Shown piece after piece: positions 1,575 to 56,635 of a DNA stretch of 64,000 nucleotides. The translations under genes and the position numbers were made by a program. Position 1 is the stretch's first letter; every line of letters starts with the position of its first letter. The stretch comes from a phage, in the sequence record PZ445498.1; one strand, given 5' to 3'. Under the pieces are notes generated by a model. That model did not search any database. It saw only the letters and a list, made by a program, of their open reading frames with translations, and was not told the origin of the DNA.

Positions 1575-2465
1575 TTATACCAAATCTTTGAGCGATTCGG
1601 CAACTAAAATTTCAATACGTTGAGCCAACATATCGATCTCTTCTTTATTTAAGTCACCTGGGTCTTTGCCTTCTGGAAGAAGGAAGTTACCAACTACAGG
1701 TGTTAAACGCGTTTTTGTACGAATTAGCTTCGCTAGTGCTTGTGCGGCTTTATTACCAGAGGCATCATTATCTAATAGGATAACTACTACTCTTACTCCA
1801 GCAATAATGTAAGGACTGAACTTATCGGCAATGTTATCAGATGTAAACTGATGTGTACCAAAGCAGCAAGAAGCATAATCCACACCGTTATCTTCTAGAT
1901 TTAACATATCAAAGATACCTTCAACTAGAACAAGAACTGGTGTATTATATCGTACAGGAAAAATCGGTGGTGAAACTTGTTTTGGTTTTACTAAGTATTT
2001 AGGAGGGGCAGAACTGTTTATAGAACGTCCCAGGAATAGGATATTGCGTCCAACAGCATCTGTTATTGGGAATACAATTCTGCCTTCCCAGTCTGCTTGA
2101 TGTTGGAAAGCAAAATATTTCTTCAAGGTCTTAGAACTGATACCTCGGAAATCACCTTCGAAAAGGTAAGCAGATTCAGGAATTGCAAGATTCGTAGATC
2201 CATTCCTAATCTCTGAAATCTTTTTACGTACTTGTGACAATCTTGGGGACTGTCTGTACTGAGTCTCATTAAAATAATGGTAAATGCTCGGTATTCCTCT
2301 ACCGAAGCCACAGCTCAAGCAATGCATAATACCTGATTCAGGATCAATACGCAAGCTTGGGTGTTTATCATCATGATCTGGATTGAGACAACAGATGAGG
2401 ATGTCCCCACCTGTGTCTTTGTATTCAATGCCTTTCAGATCAAGTAGTTCTGTTATTCTACTCAT
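1575..2465 (-). CDS. DNA primase (DnaG-like: zinc-binding plus TOPRIM)
   Basis: 296 aa ORF; Cys/His cluster CCLNPDH...CLSCGFG and acidic TOPRIM-like VLVEG / LLDNDASG motifs. Confidence 0.7.
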   Translation of the reverse strand: MSRITELLDLKGIEYKDTGGDILICCLNPDHDDKHPSLRIDPESGIMHCLSCGFGRGIPSIYHYFNETQYRQSPRLSQVRKKISEIRNGSTNLAIPESAYLFEGDFRGISSKTLKKYFAFQHQADWEGRIVFPITDAVGRNILFLGRSINSSAPPKYLVKPKQVSPPIFPVRYNTPVLVLVEGIFDMLNLEDNGVDYASCCFGTHQFTSDNIADKFSPYIIAGVRVVVILLDNDASGNKAAQALAKLIRTKTRLTPVVGNFLLPEGKDPGDLNKEEIDMLAQRIEILVAESLKDLV

Positions 2466-3934
2466 ATATCGCTGGCCTGTTCACCTGTTGAATTTTCAGC
2501 TTTGTCTTTCTTAGCACGTTTAGGTTGAGCTGGTTTATCCTTTTCAATAGGAATAACGAACTCAGCTTCCATTTGCGCAATATCTTCCATTGCTAGGTTG
2601 GTAGTGTTATCCATTCGCAGAGTTTCCCAGTTCATCTTAGGCATAAACTTCACACTATCAGAGGAACGAGTCTTAACGAAGTCAAACATAATAGCACCTT
2701 GACCATTATCAGCTTTTGCAGCATTAAGATTAGCAGCCATATCTGCGGAATCAAGAATCCCTTTAGACATACGCGTTCTACCATCTTGGTCAATCTGATA
2801 AGGAGCAACACCAGCCACGTTATGTTTCTGGCAGATAGATTTGAAAGACGAACTAACAACCATCTGTTCTTTCCAGTCATACATGTCAATGGTCTTTGAA
2901 TCTGGAAGTCTTGTTTGGTTAATATAGTCTAGAAGAGCTACAGTAACCTTATCACCATACTTAGCAACTAGTTTATTTAATTCTACGTCAACCGTCGTAA
3001 TAGACAGTTCAGGATCGTAAACGATGATCATAGGAGTGTGAAGCTCATAGCCTTCAAGGAGTTTACTTTCCATATCATAGAAGTCACTCATTTTAGCCAT
3101 AGTGTATTGCTTAACGAAGTTATCGAAAAGCTCTTCACCACCATTAAACATCCTAGCCCTAGTTCTGGCTAATCTCAACAGAGCAGCACCTTCAAGAGTG
3201 TTGTTACGCATTGCTAATGCAGATACTCCAGCTAACATAGCCAGATTACGTCTAAACACTTCGTGCTCTTTCATCTCAATTGAGAAATATGGAGCAATGT
3301 CTCCATTCAAATATTGCTGAACCTGTATGTTTGAGCAGATAATGGATTTACCAGTACCACGCCAACCACCAAGCAGTAACGTTTCTGTGCGAGCTAAACC
3401 AATTTGAGCGTCGAACTCATTACAAATACCAAGAGCGATCAAGTTCAGTTTGGTATCTTCTTCTCTCTGGAAAATACGCATTGTGTCTGCGTTGAATACC
3501 TTTCCAGTATTCGTTACTTTCTCTTCTAATTTTAAGTGAAGGGAGGCAACTCGGTTGAGAATTTCTCCCTGATCCAGCATTGTTAAATCTTGAAGCACGT
3601 CTGTTTCTAGAAGTTTCAGGAATAGATCCTGTGTATATTCGGCTTCTAGGACTTCAAGCGCCTGTTCCATGCTCACTTCTGGAATTTGAGTGTTAGCTAA
3701 GACGACAAGAGCTTGAGAAAGGCGGGCGTTCCTATTGGCCTCAAGCATCAGTGCGTCAATGGACGGCATTGCGTTATATTTCTTATAATAATTCTGGACG
3801 GCTTGGTAAATTGAGGAGAAAGCGTCATTAAAATGATCTTTATGCAGTTTTGAGAATGTTTCCAATGCTATTTGCTTCTGTTCAGAAGCGAGAAGCATCT
3901 TCAACACTACAGCTTGCACGTTAAACAAGGTCAT
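2462..3934 (-). CDS. replicative DNA helicase (DnaB-like)
   Basis: Walker A GGWRGTGKS; start placed at ATG 3934 with AAGGAGA RBS; track start 3985 would run through a terminator hairpin. Confidence 0.75.
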   Translation of the reverse strand: MTLFNVQAVVLKMLLASEQKQIALETFSKLHKDHFNDAFSSIYQAVQNYYKKYNAMPSIDALMLEANRNARLSQALVVLANTQIPEVSMEQALEVLEAEYTQDLFLKLLETDVLQDLTMLDQGEILNRVASLHLKLEEKVTNTGKVFNADTMRIFQREEDTKLNLIALGICNEFDAQIGLARTETLLLGGWRGTGKSIICSNIQVQQYLNGDIAPYFSIEMKEHEVFRRNLAMLAGVSALAMRNNTLEGAALLRLARTRARMFNGGEELFDNFVKQYTMAKMSDFYDMESKLLEGYELHTPMIIVYDPELSITTVDVELNKLVAKYGDKVTVALLDYINQTRLPDSKTIDMYDWKEQMVVSSSFKSICQKHNVAGVAPYQIDQDGRTRMSKGILDSADMAANLNAAKADNGQGAIMFDFVKTRSSDSVKFMPKMNWETLRMDNTTNLAMEDIAQMEAEFVIPIEKDKPAQPKRAKKDKAENSTGEQASDI

Positions 3935-3965
3935 TCTCCTTTGCACGCTTTCGTGCCTTCTAAAT

Positions 3966-4005
3966 GCAAAAAGGGGAAGGAGCATAGCCCCCTCCCCTTA
4001 GGTTT
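3966..4005 (-). terminator. rho-independent terminator (minus)
   Basis: G/C-rich hairpin GGGGAAGGAG...CCCCTCCCC with T-run on minus strand downstream of gene 4017-4784. Confidence 0.55.
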
Positions 4006-4016
4006 AATTTACCAGA

Positions 4017-4784
4017 TTATTCAGCAGCCGCAGCTTTTGCATCCAGTTTAGCACGCTTAGCGGCACCATCATAGTCCTTAGCAACCAGACCACGACGAGA
4101 CAGCATAGATTTAACACCGCGCTCAGACTTACCAGTTTTCTCAGCGATCTCAGCAACAGTCATGTTAGCCAGATCCAGACCTTCTAACAGATCTTCACGA
4201 GTTTTAGCACTTGAAGTTTCCTGTACCGGCATAGCAGCGATACGACCTTCACGAAGCAGGCTCAGAGCTTTACCACGGATCTGCTTAATATTGCGACCGA
4301 AGTGAGCAGCGATAGCTTCAATAGTAGCACCAGCAACAACCTGATTAACGAAATCAGTTTCTTCGTCAGGAGTGAAGGAACGAACAGCAGCAGCTTTTTC
4401 AGTTGGCTTAACAGAAGCGGTCATTTCCAGACTCAGGATCTTACCCTGTACCTGCTTAGCACCGAACTGACCACCAGCTACAGCAGCAGCGATTTCAGCG
4501 TAAGTATACTGACCAGCATGAGCGTTCAGGAAATCAACCAGTTCAGCTTCTTGTTCAGGAGTCCACGGGGATTTCTGTACTTCGTTAGCTTTCTGTACTT
4601 CGAAACCTTCTTTACGCAGCTTAGAGCCAACAGAGCGAGCGGTAACGTCTTTACCAGTCTCGGTAGCCAGTTCAGCAGCGATAGCAGCTACTTGTTCTTG
4701 AGAGATTACAGCAACACCCAGAGCAGTGGCTTTTGCTTTCAGAGACTCGGTTACACCTTCTACGTTCCAGTTCAGTTTAGACAT
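4017..4784 (-). CDS. Ala/Lys-rich putative DNA-binding protein (possibly T5 D5-like)
   Basis: 255 aa ORF with highly expressed-type codon usage and GGAG RBS; product assignment is a guess. Confidence 0.45.
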   Translation of the reverse strand: MSKLNWNVEGVTESLKAKATALGVAVISQEQVAAIAAELATETGKDVTARSVGSKLRKEGFEVQKANEVQKSPWTPEQEAELVDFLNAHAGQYTYAEIAAAVAGGQFGAKQVQGKILSLEMTASVKPTEKAAAVRSFTPDEETDFVNQVVAGATIEAIAAHFGRNIKQIRGKALSLLREGRIAAMPVQETSSAKTREDLLEGLDLANMTVAEIAEKTGKSERGVKSMLSRRGLVAKDYDGAAKRAKLDAKAAAAE

Positions 4785-5559
4785 TATTATTTTTCTCCAA
4801 TAGTTCTTTAATCGACAGGATTTCTATCCCATTCGTTTCGGCTTTCTTATAAGATGAGGAAGAACGTTTTGATTCATCCTCACAGATTAGGTATTTGACG
4901 TCTTTGGTAACGGACTTCTTAACCGTATATCCTAGACTTTCTAAATAGTTTGTTGCATCCGTTCGATTTGCAAAATCTTGCAAAGATCCGGTAATACAGA
5001 CCGTGATTCCATTTGGCTGGGCAACTAAATCATCAGTAATGATGATATCAGCTTTAGCACCTCGAATACCAGTTGAGAATTTCCACGGTAATTCAATAAC
5101 ATCCTTGCCTTGTGGGGAATTTAGCCAGGTTTTGTAATTTTCTCCAGCCTTGCCGTCAGCCTTCACATCGTGGAAGCTAGTGCAATTTTGGGACAGTTTC
5201 TTTGCTGCAACCTCTCCAATAAGAGGAATTCCTAAAGAACCGAGAACTGAACCAAAGTCAATGTCTCCGCGAACCTTAGTATTTAACTCGCTAATCAACT
5301 TAGTGGCAACCTTGCTACCCACAGCTCCGACCAAATCTTCTTCGGTCAGGTAAAACAGTTCTGAGATCTTAGTCAGTTCCAGCTTCTCAATAGTTTTTGG
5401 GCCAAAGCCCTTTAACTTCATTTTTGTGCAGAAGTTCTCGATTAACTTACTTGATTGCGCTGGACAGTTGGACTTATTCCTACAGAATAATTGCCCGTTG
5501 ACAAGATCTAGCTTAGAACCACAAGAGGGACATTGTGTTGGAATTTCGATTTTCATCAA
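4777..5559 (-). CDS. NAD-dependent DNA ligase, C-terminal fragment (Zn-finger, HhH, BRCT-like)
   Basis: CPSCGSKL...C..C zinc ribbon, helix-hairpin-helix and BRCT-like tail; own promoter and RBS upstream. Confidence 0.75.
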   Translation of the reverse strand: MMKIEIPTQCPSCGSKLDLVNGQLFCRNKSNCPAQSSKLIENFCTKMKLKGFGPKTIEKLELTKISELFYLTEEDLVGAVGSKVATKLISELNTKVRGDIDFGSVLGSLGIPLIGEVAAKKLSQNCTSFHDVKADGKAGENYKTWLNSPQGKDVIELPWKFSTGIRGAKADIIITDDLVAQPNGITVCITGSLQDFANRTDATNYLESLGYTVKKSVTKDVKYLICEDESKRSSSSYKKAETNGIEILSIKELLEKNNNV

Positions 5560-5586
5560 ATTTCTTCCTTATCAATTTATATAAAT

Positions 5587-5615
5587 ATTATAGCAAGTAT
5601 TTAAGCATTTAGCAA
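5587..5615 (-). promoter_or_regulatory. early promoter (minus) for ligase C-terminal fragment
   Basis: Reverse complement reads TTGCTA-17-TATAAT followed by ATTTATATAAATTGATAAGGAAG leader and ATG 5559. Confidence 0.7.
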
Positions 5616-5758
5616 CTACAATTTTAACTAACTTTGCTTACCCTCGCCATAACTTTCTATCCCTCAACTGAATGATAATAGTATATACCTAAGCGGCGAA
5701 AATGTCAATAACCACTTTATAATTCCGACATGGTAAACGGGTAGCAAAGGGTTACGAA

Positions 5759-6733
5759 TTAGTCGTATACTCGCTCTACTATACAAGGGATTACACCACC
5801 AGCACGAATCACTCGAATCTGGCAACCGATCTCTAAATCGAGAGCGTTAATATAATCAACGTTATTAAGAGTTGCTTTAACGATTGTGGCATCATCAATA
5901 ATCACCGGCTCGAAATAACCAACTGGAGTTACTTTACCAGAAGCCCCTACTTGCCATTCAACTTTAACAAGTGTGGTAATTTCGCCTTCTTCATCCTCTT
6001 TAATAGCAAATGCACCACGAGGAAATTTATTAGTCCAACCTTCACGGAAGAATTTATTGTTGTCGTTAATACGAACAACTTTACCGTCCGTCGGAATCCA
6101 TTTAAAAAAGGAACGAACATTAACAACTGTCAAGAAGTTCTCATTCTCTAGCCAAAGCATATCTTTTAAATAGGCTTCTGTAATACCGACTGTTTCCGCT
6201 GAACACTGTATACCATATGCAACGAAGATTAAACCACCTTCACCAATACGTTGCATGAAATCATCGCTGTCTTTCAGGTTAATAGCACCCGAAGCGTAGT
6301 TACGTTTGTTCTCTACTTCTTTAGTAATGAGAACTTCACCAGTGATTTGAGTTGGTACTTTTTGGGAAATAGTTTTGGGGATGTTCAGCATTTTAACATT
6401 ATGCGTTACATCATTCCCTAGAATACCGTTACCACGAGTTAACGCTTGAACAAACTCACCATTAATATATAATAGAGAAATCGCACAACCATCTAACTTA
6501 TCAGTTTCAACCTGACCAAGTGGGTTGAATGGAGCTTTATCACCACGATCGTAATAGACTTTCTGCAAAGAATACATACGATACAAATGAGGGATATCAC
6601 CTTTCGGTCCGATTTCTTCCTCTAGTGGGAATCTTTTAATCAGACGATCATATTCTTCATCGGAAATAAGACTCATTCCCTGGTAGTACGCTTCTTGACA
6701 ACGTTTAATAAAGTCTTTTACATTATTCATCAT
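5759..6733 (-). CDS. NAD-dependent DNA ligase, N-terminal adenylation-domain fragment
   Basis: KLDG adenylation lysine motif and OB-fold region; ends ~200 bp upstream of the C-terminal fragment ORF. Confidence 0.75.
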   Translation of the reverse strand: MMNNVKDFIKRCQEAYYQGMSLISDEEYDRLIKRFPLEEEIGPKGDIPHLYRMYSLQKVYYDRGDKAPFNPLGQVETDKLDGCAISLLYINGEFVQALTRGNGILGNDVTHNVKMLNIPKTISQKVPTQITGEVLITKEVENKRNYASGAINLKDSDDFMQRIGEGGLIFVAYGIQCSAETVGITEAYLKDMLWLENENFLTVVNVRSFFKWIPTDGKVVRINDNNKFFREGWTNKFPRGAFAIKEDEEGEITTLVKVEWQVGASGKVTPVGYFEPVIIDDATIVKATLNNVDYINALDLEIGCQIRVIRAGGVIPCIVERVYD

Positions 6734-6923
6734 CTGCGATTTCCATTTTGAGTTCTTTACTATACTGCGCAGCCATACCAGCTAAATCAGCAGCTTCTTT
6801 CAACCACGCATCTTTGTACGCTTTCTGGTTTGGAGTGCCGATACTATCCTGGTAATTGATTCTTGCTATGGAGAGCAAATTAAGTTTTGCTTGAATCTTT
6901 GGAAGTGTTATTATCATTGCCAT
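6723..6923 (-). CDS. hypothetical small protein
   Basis: ORF after minus-strand early promoter; start moved to ATG 6923 because track start lies in the conserved promoter leader box. Confidence 0.45.
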   Translation of the reverse strand: MAMIITLPKIQAKLNLLSIARINYQDSIGTPNQKAYKDAWLKEAADLAGMAAQYSKELKMEIADDE

Positions 6924-6952
6924 AATTGATCCTCTCATCAATTTATATAAAT

Positions 6953-6981
6953 ATTATATATGAAAACTGAGTCGAAAGCAA
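6953..6981 (-). promoter_or_regulatory. early promoter (minus)
   Basis: Reverse complement TTGCTT-17-TATAAT plus conserved ATAAATTGATGAGAGGA leader. Confidence 0.7.
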
Positions 6982-7008
6982 GTACATTTATAAAGAAAAA
7001 GCCAAGAA

Positions 7009-7317
7009 CTAGGCATTCTTGGCTTTGAGTTCTTCAGCTCGTTTCTGTACTTCATGCAAGACCTCTGATTCACTGAGGATTTGCGTAAAAGCGTAGAATA
7101 GCTGTGATGTAGTTTCTAGGGTATAAGGAAAAGAGAAGCCGGATTTCGTTGGAAACCACTCTCCAGTAATATCTTGGAGCCAGTAACGAATTCCCATGTA
7201 TAGATTCCCACGAAATTCAGATACGGTTAGTCTTACTTGTTCCCCCTCCTTCTCCCAAAGCATGATGGACTGGTCGTCAACGTGTCCTTCATAGTTTTGA
7301 TTTACTTGATCGCTCAT
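7009..7317 (-). CDS. hypothetical protein
   Basis: 102 aa ORF; terminator hairpin of upstream gene just 5' of it. Confidence 0.5.
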   Translation of the reverse strand: MSDQVNQNYEGHVDDQSIMLWEKEGEQVRLTVSEFRGNLYMGIRYWLQDITGEWFPTKSGFSFPYTLETTSQLFYAFTQILSESEVLHEVQKRAEELKAKNA

Positions 7318-12240: not shown

Positions 12241-12736
12241 AACAATACTCCTATGTTGGTTATTCGGATATCTTTCTTTAGGACTATTCAAAAGAATAGA
12301 ACAACTATTACTACCATTTACACAAACATTAATCATCATCAAGCAGTATGAATAAGTTATCATACCTCAGTGCTGCGCTCTCTTAACTCTTATCCAGATC
12401 AGAACCTAGGTCATTGGCCGCTAAGCCGATTCTGATTGCCCTCACTATCCTATTGGTAGGTGGCTACTGGACGTGTCACCATTCGCTGCTCTTTTCGTTC
12501 GCACCCCCATATAAAGCTCTGCCTATATAACGAGCTAAATATGCACGGTTTGGATTTACCTTTCCGAATTCAGGGTACGCAGATCACTTAATTGATAATT
12601 AACTAATGCAGTATAAACACTAGTAATAGTTAAAACAACCCTTAATGGGGCAGCCTAACTGTTCCGTATTGCGGATTGTAAACAAGAAAAATTAGCAAAA
12701 TCAATTTTTACTAATGTCTCTCAATTCAATATAAAT

Positions 12737-12765
12737 ATTATATCAAGATTTTGAGCATCCTGCAA
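12737..12765 (-). promoter_or_regulatory. early promoter (minus) with ~490 nt leader before SF2 helicase gene
   Basis: Reverse complement TTGCAG-17-TATAAT plus ATTTATATTGAATTGAGAGA leader. Confidence 0.65.
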
Positions 12766-12856
12766 GTAAAATTTTTCCGAAGGTGCTATCAGTGTCTTTG
12801 AGCACAGAGAAAACCGAGCCAAAATGACTCGGTAATCAGGATTGGGCTAACGAAAA

Positions 12857-18131: not shown

Positions 18132-18243
18132 CACGCGCCCGTGTACGCGATATAAAATGATTATCTAGTACCATACATCTCCCAATAAAAGCAAGCAAAT
18201 TTTTTATTTAAATGCAATATCATAGGCTTATTTAAAATTGTAG

Positions 18244-18272
18244 TTGCTTTCTCCCGTATATATTGGTATAAT
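18244..18272 (+). promoter_or_regulatory. promoter (plus), proximal to phoH
   Basis: TTGCTT-17-TATAAT. Confidence 0.65.
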
Positions 18273-18345
18273 ATATTTGTAAGTTGATAAACAAGATCTT
18301 TTTGTTGATCCTCTGTTAGCGAAGTACACTATAGGAGTGTTATTT

Positions 18346-21807: not shown

Positions 21808-21838
21808 AGGAGATCTTCGGGTCTCCTTTTTCTTTGAA
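21808..21838 (+). terminator. rho-independent terminator after nrdA
   Basis: Hairpin AGGAGATC-TTCG-GGTCTCCT followed by TTTTTCTTT. Confidence 0.7.
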
Positions 21839-21845
21839 ATTTTAC

Positions 21846-21874
21846 TTGCTAATCGCTACCAGATTTGCTATAAT
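21846..21874 (+). promoter_or_regulatory. early promoter for HNH/nrdB unit
   Basis: TTGCTA-17-TATAAT; AAGGAGA RBS and GTG 21899 follow. Confidence 0.7.
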
Positions 21875-21898
21875 ATCTCTATATTAAGGAGATATACT

Positions 21899-22417
21899 GT
21901 GAAACCTCAACTAACAAAAGAATTTCTAGAGAAATATCTAGAACTCAGAGAAGATACTCTCTATTGGAAGCCAAGAGAGACTAATAAAGGTGGATTTAAT
22001 ACTAGATTTGCTGGAAAACCTGTAGGAGCCGTCAATGGAAATGGCTACCTATGCTTCCGACTTAACGTGGAAGGTTATAGATGGGAATTAAGAAATCATG
22101 TAGTAATCTTCTGTCTCTATTATGGATATTACCCAACTAAGACAGTAGACCATAAAGATACAAATAAACTTAATAACCATCCTTTAAATCTACGAGAATC
22201 AACCGATGCTGGTAATGCCCAAAATAGGGGAGCCGGTAAAAACAATACCCATGGACATAAAAACCTAGAGCCTCTTAGTTCAGGAAACTGGAGGGTTAGG
22301 ATAACACACAACGGTACTGTTTACAGATCTTCCGCAATGCCTCTAGAAAAAGCTCTAGAACATAGAGATATTAAACTTAAAGAATTTCATGGCGAATACG
22401 CTAATAATGGAGAATAA
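21899..22417 (+). CDS. HNH homing endonuclease with AP2-like DNA-binding domain
   Basis: GTG start after AAGGAGA RBS; HNH-like VDHKDTNKLNNH; wedged between nrdA and nrdB; paralogs at 36897 and 55342. Confidence 0.7.
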   Translation: MKPQLTKEFLEKYLELREDTLYWKPRETNKGGFNTRFAGKPVGAVNGNGYLCFRLNVEGYRWELRNHVVIFCLYYGYYPTKTVDHKDTNKLNNHPLNLRESTDAGNAQNRGAGKNNTHGHKNLEPLSSGNWRVRITHNGTVYRSSAMPLEKALEHRDIKLKEFHGEYANNGE

Positions 22418-38352: not shown

Positions 38353-38559
38353 ATGGCTAATCCTGAAATTACGGCACAACGCTTTATGCTGAAAGGAATT
38401 ATTGCTGAAGCAGGCATGACAGAAGAAGTTACAGATTTTCAAAAGCAATTCCTCAATATTCTCACTCAAGCTAAAGAGCTAGGAGAGAAGGAACATGGCG
38501 CGGCTATTATGGCAATCACGTTGGTTGGGCTTGATCTGGCTGAAGAATCAGGAGTTTAA
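38353..38559 (+). CDS. hypothetical small protein
   Basis: ATG 38353 after GGAG RBS; track ORF 38287 is an in-frame upstream extension. Confidence 0.45.
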   Translation: MANPEITAQRFMLKGIIAEAGMTEEVTDFQKQFLNILTQAKELGEKEHGAAIMAITLVGLDLAEESGV

Positions 38560-38589
38560 CTCCTCCAAGCAGAAATTTTAAAAATGTAC

Positions 38590-38619
38590 TTGCTTTTTAC
38601 TTAAGATTTCTGTTATAAT
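38590..38619 (+). promoter_or_regulatory. early promoter
   Basis: TTGCTT-18-TATAAT plus TATAAATTGATGAAGGAG leader. Confidence 0.65.
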
Positions 38620-38649
38620 AGTTATATAAATTGATGAAGGAGTTAACGA

Positions 38650-38925
38650 ATGCAAAATCGTGTTATAACAACTGGTATTGAAAGTGCAATCTGTAAATCC
38701 TGGGAAGGCTGGGAAGGTGAGATTGAATGGCTTTATTTCTATGATGTAGAACTTCTGCCGGAAATTAAAGCTAAATGTGTTGAAGCTGGCATGGCTCCAG
38801 ATGCTACGGCTGATGTTGAGATTAGCATGAATAAGTTAGAGGGTCGGGTAATCACTGTTAGTGATGAGGGTGAAGAAGTTTTTGAACTTCCGTTCTCCTT
38901 AACTGTCACTCCTAAGTTCGACTAA
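38650..38925 (+). CDS. hypothetical protein
   Basis: 91 aa ORF after promoter 38590-38619. Confidence 0.5.
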   Translation: MQNRVITTGIESAICKSWEGWEGEIEWLYFYDVELLPEIKAKCVEAGMAPDATADVEISMNKLEGRVITVSDEGEEVFELPFSLTVTPKFD

Positions 38926-38961
38926 CTGATACAGCACTGAGCAAGTTCTTTAAAGTTTGAC

Positions 38962-38991
38962 TTGCTCAAGTGCCTTAAAACTTGATATAAT
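38962..38991 (+). promoter_or_regulatory. promoter for tRNA operon (Tyr-Glu-Trp-Phe)
   Basis: TTGCTC-18-TATAAT; ~120 nt leader then tRNA-Tyr. Confidence 0.6.
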
Positions 38992-39115
38992 ATTTATCTA
39001 ATTTGGAAACATATCTGAATGAGAAGTAATTAAGCGAGTTGCTTTTAGGGGTAAAGTCAGGAAATCCTGAAATATTCCACCTTGAGTTTAACCGACTTAC
39101 TTTTCATTCAAATAT

Positions 39116-42874: not shown

Positions 42875-43228
42875 TGCAATTATCAAGCAAGGTTCAAGGC
42901 TATTTCGGTCATGTAACAATGGAGTTCGCTATCTCTTAAAGGTTGGGACTTCGAACAAGATCTAGCTGAATTCTACAAAGATATTGATCTGAACGTACCA
43001 TACATAGGACTCTCCACTGGTCAAGAGATTACAGAAGCCGATGTATTCAAGGCAAGTCAAGGTGAGGTAACACCTAGTTTTGCCGAGTTCTGGTTAGGTA
43101 TCACACTGAAAGAAGATGCACCGGATGGTGGTGTGGTTATGCAGAGTATGCACTCTGGAAGCTCTGATTACCTTTTCGTTAGCGACGTTAAGGAACTACA
43201 AGAAATCGCTAAAAATGTACTTGCTTGA
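42875..43228 (+). pseudogene. ORF interrupted by in-frame TAA (21 codons, stop at 42938-42940, then ~95 more codons)
   Basis: ATG 42875 with AAGGA RBS; in-frame TAA; downstream frame stays open to TGA 43226-43228 with no ATG near its start. Confidence 0.35.
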
Positions 43229-43239
43229 TGCTTAATTTC
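43211..43239 (+). promoter_or_regulatory. early promoter ahead of ORF-free leader and tRNA-Ala/Leu
   Basis: TTGCTT-17-TATAAT plus TATAAATTGATGTGAAAATAG leader. Confidence 0.7.
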
Positions 43240-43604
43240 TTGTTATAATATTTATATAAATTGATGTGAAAATAGCTGCCTAGATATCAGGTGTATGACG
43301 TCTACACTAGCAGAGCTACCGAAAAAGAGATCCTCAGGATAAACGCCGTAGCAAAATTAGTCTGATATCCATCAATTTAGTTCACTAAGGTATTAGCTCG
43401 ACCTAGGACTGGCTGCCAAAAAGCACAGTTGCAATTAGACCCCCTAATGGCGGGGGATGCTTTGCAATAAGTTCTAGATTAGTCCACTAGATTCAGCGGC
43501 TACTGAATAGTGTATTGGGTTTGCGAGATGACGCGGTTCCTTCCGCTCGAAGCGAAGGTGCTGTAGTTACGCCGAGCTAATAGCCTTAGTAAACTAAAGA
43601 ATTT

Positions 43605-45980: not shown

Positions 45981-46055
45981 GCTCCTAAAGCATTGCTGGC
46001 GATGCAGTTGCCTTGTAAGCATCTGAACTGGGTTCGACTCCTGGTGGGAGCACCA
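45981..46055 (+). tRNA. tRNA-Thr (anticodon TGT)
   Basis: Acceptor GCTCCTA/TGGGAGC, D stem GCAT/ATGC, anticodon loop CTTGTAA, T arm CTGGG-TTCGACT-CCTGG, CCA. Confidence 0.8.
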
Positions 46056-46070
46056 AATTTAAAAATTCAT

Positions 46071-46099
46071 TTGCCTTCTCTCTTATTTCTTGTTATAAT
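46071..46099 (+). promoter_or_regulatory. early promoter
   Basis: TTGCCT-17-TATAAT plus TATAAATTAATGAGAGGGAAACC leader. Confidence 0.7.
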
Positions 46100-46129
46100 A
46101 TTTATATAAATTAATGAGAGGGAAACCAA

Positions 46130-46423
46130 ATGAAACGTTATCTTTCTGTCGTGTTCCAAACTGGTGGTCAACGCTACACTTATGAATTTCCTGAGTCCTG
46201 GAAAATTAAAGAAGGTGATCAAGTTGTTGTATTAACACCTCGTGAAGGCTTCAAAGTAGTAACGGTTAAACAAGTCTTTCCAAAAGATCACGAACCATCT
46301 AAGTCTATTCAGTACAAGATGATTCACGGTCTGGTACGAAAAGTACCTAGAACAGAAGTCGAAGTAGATAAAACTGGGGAAGCTAAATACCAGTATACTT
46401 CTTACTTGGATGAAATGATGTAA
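46130..46423 (+). CDS. hypothetical protein
   Basis: 97 aa ORF after promoter 46071-46099; stop abuts tRNA-Ile. Confidence 0.55.
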   Translation: MKRYLSVVFQTGGQRYTYEFPESWKIKEGDQVVVLTPREGFKVVTVKQVFPKDHEPSKSIQYKMIHGLVRKVPRTEVEVDKTGEAKYQYTSYLDEMM

Positions 46424-47824: not shown

Positions 47825-48178
47825 ATGAGCCGTACATATCGTAAACAATCGGGAAATCGTCACTGGCGTGATGCACATCGTTCTAAATTCAACTTTACTC
47901 TTGGGTACAATCGTCGTTTCTTTGCTTTGAAGGAGCCAGCAGTCCCGTATACTAGAGAAGAAGTTGAAAAGGAATTACAAGACCATATCATTAAATATGA
48001 GAAGAAGGATGGTTACAACTGGGATTCTATCAGCCAAGCCGTCAAGTGGCACTCTAACAAAATGGTTCGTCAAGGAAACCGTATGGAACTGCATCGTGTT
48101 ATGCAAGATCCGGAAAATTACGACTACAACTGCGATCATGACCTACGTAAGCGTGGGTTATGGTGGTGCTACGACTAA
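47825..48178 (+). CDS. hypothetical protein
   Basis: 117 aa ORF with GGAGG RBS. Confidence 0.5.
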   Translation: MSRTYRKQSGNRHWRDAHRSKFNFTLGYNRRFFALKEPAVPYTREEVEKELQDHIIKYEKKDGYNWDSISQAVKWHSNKMVRQGNRMELHRVMQDPENYDYNCDHDLRKRGLWWCYD

Positions 48179-48195
48179 TTTCGTAAATAATTCAT

Positions 48196-48224
48196 TTGCT
48201 AAAACCCTCTCCTTTTGATATAAT
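48196..48224 (+). promoter_or_regulatory. early promoter
   Basis: TTGCTA-17-TATAAT plus TATAAATTGATGAGAGGGC leader. Confidence 0.75.
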
Positions 48225-48254
48225 ATTTATATAAATTGATGAGAGGGCTTTGAA

Positions 48255-48536
48255 ATGAAAACTCGCCTAGACTGTGCTGTTCACGTACTTGAGCATGATG
48301 TTGTTGGGACTTGTATGTCTTATCATGAAGCAGGTAAAATGATTGTTAAACGTGTTGCTGATGTTTGTAGTTTGAAAATCACCGAAGATGAAGCAGACGA
48401 ACTGCTTGGACAGGCAATAGAGAAAACAGAAATTTTCTTGTGCGATTCTTGTTCTTGGTGGTGTGAAGCTCACGAACATTCTTTCAATGATTATGATGTA
48501 TGCCGTGACTGTAAAGAGGACGATGAAGATGAATAA
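48255..48536 (+). CDS. hypothetical Cys-rich protein
   Basis: 93 aa after promoter 48196-48224; CDSCSWWC and CRDC motifs. Confidence 0.5.
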   Translation: MKTRLDCAVHVLEHDVVGTCMSYHEAGKMIVKRVADVCSLKITEDEADELLGQAIEKTEIFLCDSCSWWCEAHEHSFNDYDVCRDCKEDDEDE

Positions 48537-56159: not shown

Positions 56160-56193
56160 AACCCAGATCTTAGCTGATCTGGGTTTTTCTTTA
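56160..56193 (+). terminator. rho-independent terminator
   Basis: Hairpin ACCCAGATC-TTAGCT-GATCTGGGT followed by TTTTCTTT. Confidence 0.7.
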
Positions 56194-56194
56194 T

Positions 56195-56223
56195 TTGCCA
56201 AACGCCTAAAATTTTGATATAAT
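56195..56223 (+). promoter_or_regulatory. early promoter
   Basis: TTGCCA-17-TATAAT plus TTATAAATTGATGAGAGGAG leader. Confidence 0.75.
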
Positions 56224-56254
56224 ATATTTATAAATTGATGAGAGGAGTATCACA

Positions 56255-56635
56255 TTGAATTACGCATATCTTATAATACATAATAACGTGGTCTGTGGTA
56301 CTCGTGCTGTAGAAATGGGAATCACAGAAGAAAAATATAAGTCACTGCCTGAAAAGGAGCAAGAATATTATGTTGAGCAAGCTGCTTGGGAATATGCTGA
56401 GGCTTATCCCGAAGAACGTGAAGGCCGTGTTACTATTGTTGTTACTTTGGGGCTGGTGGGCTGTGATACCGAAGTTGATACAGATATAGAAACACTTGAA
56501 GAATGGGAAGAGTTGGATATTGCAGAACAAAATGCTATCATCCATCAATCTTTCTGGGAAGCAGTAGACTGTCACGTTGTCTTTGAGCCAAACGATACAG
56601 AAGCTGAAAAACACACTAATTGGATGACTCGATAA
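56255..56635 (+). CDS. hypothetical acidic protein
   Basis: TTG start 6 nt after GAGAGGAG RBS. Confidence 0.45.
   Translation: MNYAYLIIHNNVVCGTRAVEMGITEEKYKSLPEKEQEYYVEQAAWEYAEAYPEEREGRVTIVVTLGLVGCDTEVDTDIETLEEWEELDIAEQNAIIHQSFWEAVDCHVVFEPNDTEAEKHTNWMTR

What the first reader, a model, noticed from the sequence alone, without database searches (positions are those of the whole stretch)
4777..6733. NAD-dependent DNA ligase split into two separately promoted ORFs
The adenylation domain (5759-6733) and the Zn-finger/HhH/BRCT part (4777-5559) are separate ORFs about 200 bp apart. The gap holds a full early promoter and RBS for the C-terminal fragment (5587-5615) plus a second TTGACA-17-TATACT-like element and a tiny 8-codon ORF. 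The ligase would therefore be made as two polypeptides, or the gap is the footprint of a lost insertion. I recall split ligase subunits being annotated in T5-like phages, but the promoter-bearing spacer is worth a look.
Basis: partly seen in the sequence, partly recalled or inferred. Interest (0 to 1): 0.45.

Follow-up and report, generated by a model that had tools for sequence, protein, structure and literature searches.

The report
Known two-subunit T5-type DNA ligase
This is the two-gene NAD-dependent DNA ligase of T5-like phages, whose halves are separated by a conserved pair of early promoters; it is already annotated in phage T5, and the two-chain enzyme of a related phage has been solved on nicked DNA, so the finding is real but ordinary.

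Summary
The window is a T5-like phage (Epseptimavirus, 99% identical to mar003J3). On the minus strand, ligA (5759-6733) and ligB (4777-5556) are separated by 202 bp. That gap holds two sigma-70 promoters and an 8-codon mini-ORF.

It is already known. The T5 GenBank record annotates ligA, promoter P-K28b, promoter P-K28a and ligB in this order. [quoted passage not shown] PDB 9hu3 and 9i5i (2026) show the heterodimeric ligase of T5-like phage PR1 on nicked DNA; it is 54-57% identical to the window's proteins.

The break lies exactly in the OB/Zn-finger linker. No residues are missing or extra, so there is no intein. Rfam finds no intron. Both halves are under purifying selection (dN/dS 0.05-0.18).

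The gap is a constrained promoter module, not a scar. It is 100% identical to T5 over 172 nt while ligA is 88% identical, and the module is recognisable in all 11 cultured relatives compared.

New here: 78 of 78 uncultured T5-like contigs are split at the same point. Their 51-132-nt gap is essentially one consensus promoter, and in some the ligA stop is the TGA inside the -35 hexamer. Some lineages carry accessory genes (NADAR, DprA-like) just after ligA.

The parts
6998..7026 (-). Intrinsic-terminator-like hairpin closing the upstream transcription unit
   Evidence: 12-pair stem followed by a T run.
6953..6981 (-). Early-promoter cassette (TTGCTT-17-TATAAT) upstream of the small ORF and ligA
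   Evidence: It is one of the aligned cassette copies. T5 annotates a promoter directly upstream of ligA.
6723..6923 (-). Small ORF (66 aa from the ATG at 6923) whose stop overlaps the ligA start
   Evidence: ORF. It is annotated as a 201-nt hypothetical CDS in mar003J3. It is absent from T5 and Tequintavirus, where matches begin at query position 221. It has no NCBIfam hit.
5759..6733 (-). ligA: large ligase subunit, 324 aa (domain Ia + nucleotidyltransferase + OB fold)
   Evidence: Pfam PF01653 and PF03120. TIGR00575 positions 63-378. KLDG at K79-G82 and the Ia residues Y16, Y17 and D25 are invariant in 35 homologs. The AF2 model matches 9hu3_A and 9i5i_A with TM 0.71. dN/dS is 0.045-0.18.
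5557..5758 (-). 202-bp inter-subunit spacer
   Evidence: It is 97.5% identical to T5 overall and 100% identical over the last 172 nt, against 88% for ligA and 94% for ligB. It is at least 95% identical in 435 of 604 phage records.
5680..5708 (-). Distal promoter TTGACA-17-TATACT (equivalent of T5 P-K28b)
   Evidence: It falls inside the region that T5 and S114 annotate as P-K28b. A TATACT/TATAAT element at this position is recognisable in all 11 cultured relatives compared.
5624..5650 (-). 8-codon mini-ORF (MARVSKVS*) in the leader of the distal promoter
   Evidence: It is identical in T5. No ATG-initiated ORF is seen at this position in Sugarland or the Vibrio phages, and PR1 has an unrelated 9-codon ORF. 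It is therefore not conserved as a peptide. It follows the cassette's RBS-like GAGGGA.
5587..5615 (-). Proximal promoter TTGCTA-17-TGcTATAAT (equivalent of T5 P-K28a)
   Evidence: It is annotated as P-K28a in T5 and S114. It is a member of the cassette family that has at least 11 copies in the window. It carries the ATATT motif that PMC7472727 describes for T5 early promoters.
5564..5570 (-). Ribosome-binding site AAGGAAG of ligB
   Evidence: Direct reading of the sequence.
4777..5556 (-). ligB: small ligase subunit, 259 aa (Cys4 Zn finger + HhH + BRCT)
   Evidence: Pfam BRCT, with a weak HhH hit. TIGR00575 positions 388-651. It matches 9hu3 chain B 'DNA ligase subunit B' at E = 7.5e-79. dN/dS is 0.07-0.11.
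4017..4784 (-). D5 DNA-binding protein gene; its ATG overlaps the ligB stop (ATGTCTAA)
   Evidence: The order ligB-D5 is conserved in all relatives examined.
3971..3999 (-). Strong intrinsic terminator after D5, closing the ligB-D5 unit
   Evidence: 13-pair stem with 8 GC pairs, followed by a T run. Terminators are annotated after D5 in KEY, PR1 and Sugarland.

Best explanation
The locus encodes the heterodimeric NAD+-dependent DNA ligase typical of T5-like phages (Demerecviridae).

- LigA (Ia-NTase-OB) carries the NAD+/adenylation chemistry.
- LigB (Zn finger-HhH-BRCT) supplies the DNA-binding half.
- The two are translated separately, each from its own start codon, and assemble non-covalently around a nick to act like single-chain bacterial LigA.

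The 202-bp gap is a functional tandem early-promoter module, equivalent to T5 P-K28b and P-K28a. The inferred transcription layout is: terminator, promoter, small ORF, ligA, no terminator, two more promoters, ligB, translationally coupled D5, terminator. LigB-D5 would therefore be read from three promoters and ligA from one.

Shown here: the ORFs, domain content, break point, purifying selection, conservation of the promoter module and synteny.
Shown elsewhere for a 54-57% identical homolog: the heterodimer on nicked DNA (PDB).
Inferred: promoter activity in this phage, read-through from ligA, and the relative expression of the two halves.
For: - Identity of the phage and existing annotation.
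- Domain content: Pfam and NCBIfam cover LigA profile positions 63-378 (A) and 388-651 (B) with nothing missing.
- Catalytic residues: KLDG and the Ia motif residues are invariant.
- Break point: the A C-terminus and B N-terminus abut in the 16-30-residue OB-Zn linker of fused relatives.
- Solved homolog: PDB 9hu3 and 9i5i, 'PR1 phage heterodimeric DNA ligase in complex with 21-mer nicked DNA', whose large-subunit chain A is 100% identical to Providencia phage PR1 over 330 residues.
- Selection: dN/dS is 0.05-0.18 for both halves.
- Spacer constraint: the spacer is more conserved than the coding flanks.
- Promoters: the tandem module is recognisable in Tequintavirus, Epseptimavirus, Sugarlandvirus, Priunavirus, Novosibvirus, Shenzhenvirus and Ermolyevavirinae. 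The proximal promoter belongs to a cassette with at least 11 copies in the window.
- Unit boundaries: terminators flank the unit and none lies between ligA and ligB.
- Literature: PMC1684257 cites the split T5 ligase.
Against: - No biochemical or transcript data exist for this particular phage.
- The functional isolation of P-K28a and P-K28b is taken from the GenBank feature names and from my memory of the Bujard-lab promoter work of the 1980s. It was not confirmed from a paper held in the library (one search found nothing).
- PR1 annotates a terminator right after ligA, so read-through from ligA may not be general.
- The region-wide promoter scan is not above shuffles by count alone.
Confidence: 0.9

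Rival explanations
1. The gap is the scar of a lost insertion, such as a free-standing homing endonuclease or another mobile gene, that once split an intact ligase gene. On this view the promoters are incidental remnants.
For: - Some relatives carry 1-3 extra ORFs between ligA and ligB.
- T5-like genomes are rich in HNH endonuclease genes.
- The distal promoter cassette is followed by an RBS-like GAGGGA and only a mini-ORF, which could be a remnant of a lost gene.
Against: - The inserted ORFs are NADAR, DprA-like or unknown proteins, not endonucleases.
- They always lie between the ligA stop and the promoter module, which stays directly upstream of ligB.
- The spacer is under stronger constraint than the coding flanks.
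- In 78 of 78 uncultured relatives the gap is only 51-132 nt and consists of one consensus promoter plus an RBS, leaving no room for a scar.
Confidence: 0.07
2. A single polypeptide is restored by an intron, a split intein, translational bypassing or frameshifting.
For: Phage genes are known to be interrupted by group I introns, inteins and the T4 gene 60 bypass (general knowledge). In the window the two ORFs are in different frames.
Against: - No Rfam intron or any other RNA family is found in the gap.
- The gap is filled by promoters.
- The A C-terminus and B N-terminus carry no extra residues relative to fused homologs, so there is no intein.
- LigB has its own RBS and ATG in every lineage.
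- The PR1 enzyme was solved as two chains, with chain B starting at Met1.
Confidence: 0.01
3. One of the two fragments is a decaying pseudogene and only the other fragment, or the host LigA, matters.
For: Each half scores below the full-length NCBIfam cut-off. The host supplies LigA.
Against: - dN/dS is 0.05-0.18 in both halves out to 57% protein identity.
- Catalytic and Zn-binding residues are conserved.
- Both ORFs were intact in all 11 cultured relatives compared, are annotated as two ligase genes in the listed records, and are intact in 78 uncultured relatives.
Confidence: 0.01
4. LigB has a second role independent of LigA, for example acting with D5 on DNA. That role would explain its separate, stronger promoters and its translational coupling to D5.
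For: - LigB sits behind two extra promoters, and its stop overlaps the D5 start.
- The order ligB-D5 is invariant across relatives.
Against: There is no direct evidence. The arrangement is explained equally well by the promoters serving D5. The solved structure shows LigB acting as the ligase's DNA-binding half.
Confidence: 0.1

Closest known systems
Phage T5 ligA (T5.116) / ligB (T5.117) with promoters P-K28b and P-K28a (GenBank AY543070; Wang et al. 2005 Virology 332:45, as cited in PMC1684257)
   Same: The gene order, break point and 202-bp gap are the same. The spacer is 97.5% identical, and 100% identical over its last 172 nt. The proteins are 96% identical.
   Different: The window's phage is an Epseptimavirus and has an extra 66-aa ORF between the promoter and ligA, which T5 lacks.
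PR1 phage heterodimeric DNA ligase, PDB 9hu3 and 9i5i (released January and February 2026)
   Same: It has the same two-chain architecture: a large subunit plus 'DNA ligase subunit B'. The break point is the same. It is 57% (A) and 56% (B) identical to the window's proteins, and the AF2 model of window LigA matches it at TM 0.71.
   Different: It comes from a different genus (Priunavirus). The PR1 record annotates a terminator plus one promoter in its 192-bp gap. No paper describing the structure is held in the searchable library.
Single-chain bacterial LigA (E. coli 2OWO, T. filiformis 1DGS/1V9P)
   Same: It has the same domain set and order, Ia-NTase-OB-Zn-HhH-BRCT, and the same catalytic KxDG motif.
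   Different: It is one polypeptide of about 670 aa. The phage enzyme is compact (324 + 259 aa) and is cut in the OB-Zn linker.
Phage 'genes in pieces', such as T4 topoisomerase gp39/gp60 and the Aeromonas phage Aeh1 NrdA split by the mobE homing endonuclease (from my own memory, not checked here)
   Same: In these too, an essential enzyme is encoded as two adjacent ORFs whose products reassemble.
   Different: Here the interrupting DNA is a promoter module, with optional accessory genes, rather than a homing endonuclease gene.
LigN-deltaC, the truncated H. volcanii NAD+ ligase (PMC1684257)
   Same: An Ia-NTase-OB fragment alone forms the enzyme-adenylate, as would be expected for LigA on its own.
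   Different: It is an engineered truncation, not a natural two-subunit enzyme.

Membership tests
NAD+-dependent DNA ligase (LigA family) | Nucleotidyltransferase domain with the KxDG adenylation motif | tested here: met
   PF01653 hit at E = 1.3e-23. K79-L-D-G82 is invariant in 35 homologs.
NAD+-dependent DNA ligase (LigA family) | N-terminal domain Ia (NMN-binding) motif, YY...SDxEYD | tested here: met
   The sequence reads AYYQGMSLISDEEYDRL. Y16, Y17 and D25 are invariant and D29 nearly invariant. The assignment of these residues to NMN binding rests on my memory of the LigA literature.
NAD+-dependent DNA ligase (LigA family) | OB fold following the NTase domain | tested here: met
   PF03120 hit at E = 9.4e-22 on residues 253-322 of LigA. 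The AF2 model has beta strands at 241-322.
NAD+-dependent DNA ligase (LigA family) | Cys4 zinc finger, HhH domain and BRCT domain | tested here: met
   LigB has C9, C12, C26 and C32. The first two are conserved across cultured relatives and in the fused forms, and the later pair in all but the Aeromonas phage. BRCT hits at E = 1.1e-8; HhH is weak, below the Pfam cut-off. TIGR00575 positions 388-651 are covered.
NAD+-dependent DNA ligase (LigA family) | All domains on one polypeptide | tested here: not met
   There are two ORFs in different frames, 202 bp apart.
T5-type heterodimeric (split) ligase | Break in the OB / Zn-finger linker with no residues lost or gained | tested here: met
   The ends are ...IPCIVERVYD* and MKIEIPTQCPSC. 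All 11 cultured relatives compared and 78 uncultured ones have the same ends, and these align to the 16-30-residue linker of fused forms.
T5-type heterodimeric (split) ligase | Replication-module synteny D3 - PC4-like regulator - ligA - ligB - D5 - D6 helicase | tested here: met
T5-type heterodimeric (split) ligase | Promoter(s) directly upstream of ligB | tested here: met
   The evidence is by sequence only; promoter activity was not tested.
T5-type heterodimeric (split) ligase | The two subunits form a complex that seals nicks | not testable with these tools
   Shown only for the PR1 homolog, from the PDB entry titles.
Intron- or intein-interrupted gene | Self-splicing RNA fold in the gap, or intein residues at the junction | tested here: not met
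   No Rfam match in the gap at E <= 1. There are no extra residues at either junction end.
Gene split by a homing endonuclease | An HNH, GIY-YIG or LAGLIDADG gene, or a remnant of one, between the halves in some lineage | tested here: not met
   The six ORFs scanned, from Stubb, Direpillow8 and Vibrio D119, are NADAR, DprA-like or of unknown function; those of Erwinia KEY and Vibrio PVo5 were not scanned. There are no ORFs in the 78 short gaps.

The most novel reading that the evidence does not exclude
Across the whole T5-like supergroup, cultured Demerecviridae and many uncultured aquatic relatives alike, the fission point of the ligase is always occupied by a strong sigma-70 promoter that feeds ligB-D5. 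In the minimal forms the gap is nothing but that promoter plus an RBS, and the ligA stop codon is the TGA inside the -35 hexamer TTGAC(A/T).

This fits a model in which the birth of a promoter inside the OB-Zn linker caused the gene fission. On this model the position after ligA later became a slot for accessory genes (NADAR, DprA-like), and rare lineages such as P0036 on L092 re-fused the gene.

I found no description of this promoter-fission coupling in the literature available to me.
Probability: 0.4. Interest if true: 0.4.

Novelty: already known. Interest (0 to 1): 0.18.

Why it matters
For the window itself it matters little. The split ligase and its intervening promoters have been annotated in T5 since 2004-2005, and a homologous heterodimer has now been solved on nicked DNA.

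The comparative result adds a tidy example of a gene fission that is tightly and anciently coupled to a promoter. It also offers a natural test case for how far the halves of a clamp-like enzyme can be uncoupled in expression. This could be relevant to how T5-like phages keep site-specific nicks in their packaged DNA while encoding a ligase. The title of PDB 9hu3 shows that others are already studying the phage nick sequence.

Tried and rejected
- An Rfam scan of 4700-6800 at E <= 1 gave only a sub-threshold Ysr251 hit inside ligA and nothing in the gap. Intron rejected.
- Pfam and PHROGs scans of six of the ORFs that relatives carry between ligA and ligB found no endonuclease. The homing-endonuclease scar was rejected.
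- Literature searches for P-K28a/b, 9hu3/9i5i, 'split ligase' and the PR1 ligase found no relevant paper.
- One paper reading and one fold search failed on argument format.
- The search for related loci with the single fused proteins P0036 and P0038 found nothing in viral contigs. P0036 found nothing in metagenome contigs. P0036 was finally located through the search for homologous proteins and the look-up of encoding contigs.
- The NJ tree of 175 sequences has no support values. I use it only as a hint that compact fused forms are mostly basal and that P0036, P0038 and P0073 are nested among split forms.
- The mini-ORF was considered as a leader peptide and rejected as a conserved coding feature: no ATG-initiated ORF is seen at its position in Sugarland or the Vibrio phages, and PR1 has an unrelated peptide there.
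- The count of promoter-like sites in the region is not by itself above chance. The argument for real promoters rests on conservation.
Full report
**What is there.** On the minus strand the window has a 324-aa ORF at 5759-6733 and a 259/260-aa ORF at 4777-5556/5559.
- The first ORF matches the NAD-ligase adenylation domain and the OB fold. The second matches BRCT and, weakly, HhH.
- Against the full-length LigA model TIGR00575, the first ORF covers positions 63-378 and the second covers 388-651. Together they make one complete ligase, cut between the OB fold and the Zn finger.
- The 202-bp gap holds TTGACA-17-TATACT at 5708-5680 and TTGCTA-17-TG-TATAAT at 5615-5587. It also holds an 8-codon ORF at 5650-5624 and an AAGGAAG RBS at 5570-5564.

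**Whose genome this is, and what is already annotated.** The region is 99.2% identical to Escherichia phage vB_Eco_mar003J3 (Epseptimavirus). It matches 455 phage records, many of which label the two ORFs NAD-dependent DNA ligase subunits A and B.
- The T5 record AY543070 annotates, in order, ligA (T5.116), promoter P-K28b, promoter P-K28a, ligB (T5.117) and D5. Salmonella phage S114 copies these promoter labels.
[quoted passage not shown] It shows that an Ia-NTase-OB fragment of another ligase self-adenylates. A 2013 T5 paper lists ligA and ligB as subunits.

**Direct evidence for two polypeptides.** A sequence search of the PDB with the concatenated halves returns entries 9hu3 and 9i5i.
- Each entry holds a 339-aa 'DNA ligase (NAD+)' chain (E = 8e-106) and a 248-aa 'DNA ligase subunit B' chain (E = 7.5e-79). 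Chain B starts at MKIQIP, aligned to the window's MKIEIP.
- The large-subunit chain A is 100% identical to Providencia phage PR1 over 330 residues; PR1 is a T5-like Priunavirus.
- An AlphaFold model of window LigA (pLDDT 85) finds these entries first. Their titles read 'PR1 phage heterodimeric DNA ligase in complex with 21-mer nicked DNA', one of them 'containing phage nick sequence', released January and February 2026.
- The window proteins are 57% (A) and 56% (B) identical to PR1.

- Intein: in fused relatives the OB and Zn modules are joined by 16-30 residues. The window's ...IPCIVERVYD* plus MKIEIPTQCPSC gives 14 residues, so nothing is left over for an intein.
- Intron: Rfam at E <= 1 finds nothing in the gap. 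The gap is not a multiple of three, so the two ORFs are in different frames.
- Pseudogene: dN/dS is 0.045-0.18 for ligA and 0.07-0.11 for ligB, in comparisons out to Providencia phage PR1 for ligA and Erwinia phage KEY for ligB. The KLDG and Ia residues are invariant in 35 homologs.

**The gap is a constrained promoter module.**
- Window against T5: ligA is 88.0% identical at the nucleotide level (dS 0.66) and ligB 94.2% (dS 0.22). The spacer is 97.5% identical, with no change in its last 172 nt.
- Across phage records, the spacer is at least 99% identical in 198 records and 95-99% in 237. The whole region reaches at least 99% in only 21 records.
- The proximal promoter with its transcribed leader is one of at least 11 copies of a cassette spread through the window: -35 TTGCT, TGnTATAAT, then ATTTATATAAATTGAT and an RBS. 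It carries the ATATT motif reported for T5 early promoters.
- The same tandem layout sits directly upstream of ligB in T5, Sugarland, Erwinia KEY, Providencia PR1, Proteus Stubb, Aeromonas AhSzq-1 and three Vibrio phage lineages.
- The mini-ORF is identical in T5, but no ATG-initiated ORF is seen at its position in Sugarland or the Vibrio phages. I read it as leader sequence, not a gene.

**Transcription layout (inferred).**
- A terminator (7026-6998) and a cassette promoter (6981-6953) precede a 66-aa ORF whose stop overlaps the ligA start.
- No terminator lies between ligA and ligB.
- The ligB stop overlaps the D5 start (ATGTCTAA).
- A 13-pair terminator follows D5 at 3999-3971.
- LigB-D5 is thus a bicistron behind two extra promoters.

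**What relatives add.**
- In some lineages, 1-3 ORFs sit between the ligA stop and the promoter module, mostly overlapping or abutting the ligA stop. Proteus phage Stubb has a NADAR-domain protein (E = 1.6e-31). Thalassavirus-type Vibrio phages have a DprA-like protein (phrog_768). The other ORFs have no known function. None of the six scanned is an endonuclease.
- A search of 1.8 billion cluster representatives finds dozens of diverse clusters of about 310-335 aa that are A-only, plus a few compact fused forms of 555-586 aa.
- 78 of the 80 IMG/VR viral-contig loci retrieved span the junction, and all 78 are split at the same junction; the 13 contigs checked for neighbours carry T5-like synteny D3-ligA-ligB-D5-D6, most also with D2 and the regulator. 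Their gap is 51-132 nt (median 69). It scores 12/12 against TTGACA-17-TATAAT in 40 loci, 11/12 in 31 and 10/12 in 7, against a shuffled mean of 8.2.
- In the 51-nt class, the ligA stop is the TGA inside the -35 hexamer.
- One truly fused form, P0036, is a singleton on an 18-kb contig with the same synteny. 119 of its 120 nearest homologs are A-only.
- An unsupported NJ tree places most compact fused forms basal to the split clade.

**Verdict.** The 'lost insertion' reading is not supported. The feature is already known and annotated, and has now been characterised structurally in a homolog. The family-wide coupling of the fission point to a promoter, and the accessory-gene slot after ligA, are modest new comparative points.

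Noticed in passing
window 43186-43296(+), 38557-38667(+), 38928-39038(+), 18209-18319(+), 48161-48271(+), 56160-56270(+), 46036-46146(+), 21811-21921(+), 12689-12799(-), 6906-7016(-), 5540-5650(-): At least 11 copies of a highly conserved early-promoter cassette, made of an A-rich stretch, TTGCT, 17 nt, TGnTATAAT, then ATTTATATAAATTGAT and an RBS. The transcribed leader is as conserved as the hexamers.
   Followed up: partly
L002 (Proteus phage Stubb) 2572-3189: A 205-aa NADAR-domain protein (Pfam E = 1.6e-31) sits between ligA and the ligB promoters, and its start overlaps the ligA stop. It is annotated only as hypothetical.
   Followed up: partly
L003 (Vibrio phage Direpillow8) 2755-3973: Three ORFs are inserted after ligA. 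The last one (186 aa) matches phrog_768, a DprA-like protein. The other two have no known function.
   Followed up: partly
L092 6001-7674 (JGI contig Ga0502775_0003803): A rare fused 557-aa ligase in an otherwise T5-like replication module. Its Zn-finger codons contain TTGACA-17-CATAAT, so a promoter-like site may persist inside the coding sequence.
   Followed up: partly
L092 5314-5455: By eye, an intergenic stretch looks like part of a tRNA (…GGTTGTAGCTCAGCC…GGTTCGATTCTC…). It was not checked with a tRNA finder.
   Followed up: no
window 6723-6923 (-): A 66-aa ORF between the promoter and ligA is present in Epseptimavirus-type genomes but absent from T5 and Tequintavirus, where matches start at query position 221. 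It has no family hit.
   Followed up: partly
window 3971-3999 versus ORF 2462-3985 (-): The longest-ORF start of the D6 helicase (3985) overlaps the D5 terminator hairpin. The real start is probably the internal Met about 17 codons downstream.
   Followed up: no
phage records MG065642.1 and MG065692.1: Records named 'Campylobacter phage A148' and 'C13' are 95-99% identical to this Salmonella/Escherichia T5-like region; 'Listeria' also appears among the organism names. The host labels look doubtful.
   Followed up: no
ON637170.1 Klebsiella phage vB_KpnS_Uniso31 52087-53031: The ligA homolog is annotated as 'putative tail protein', which is a probable misannotation.
   Followed up: no
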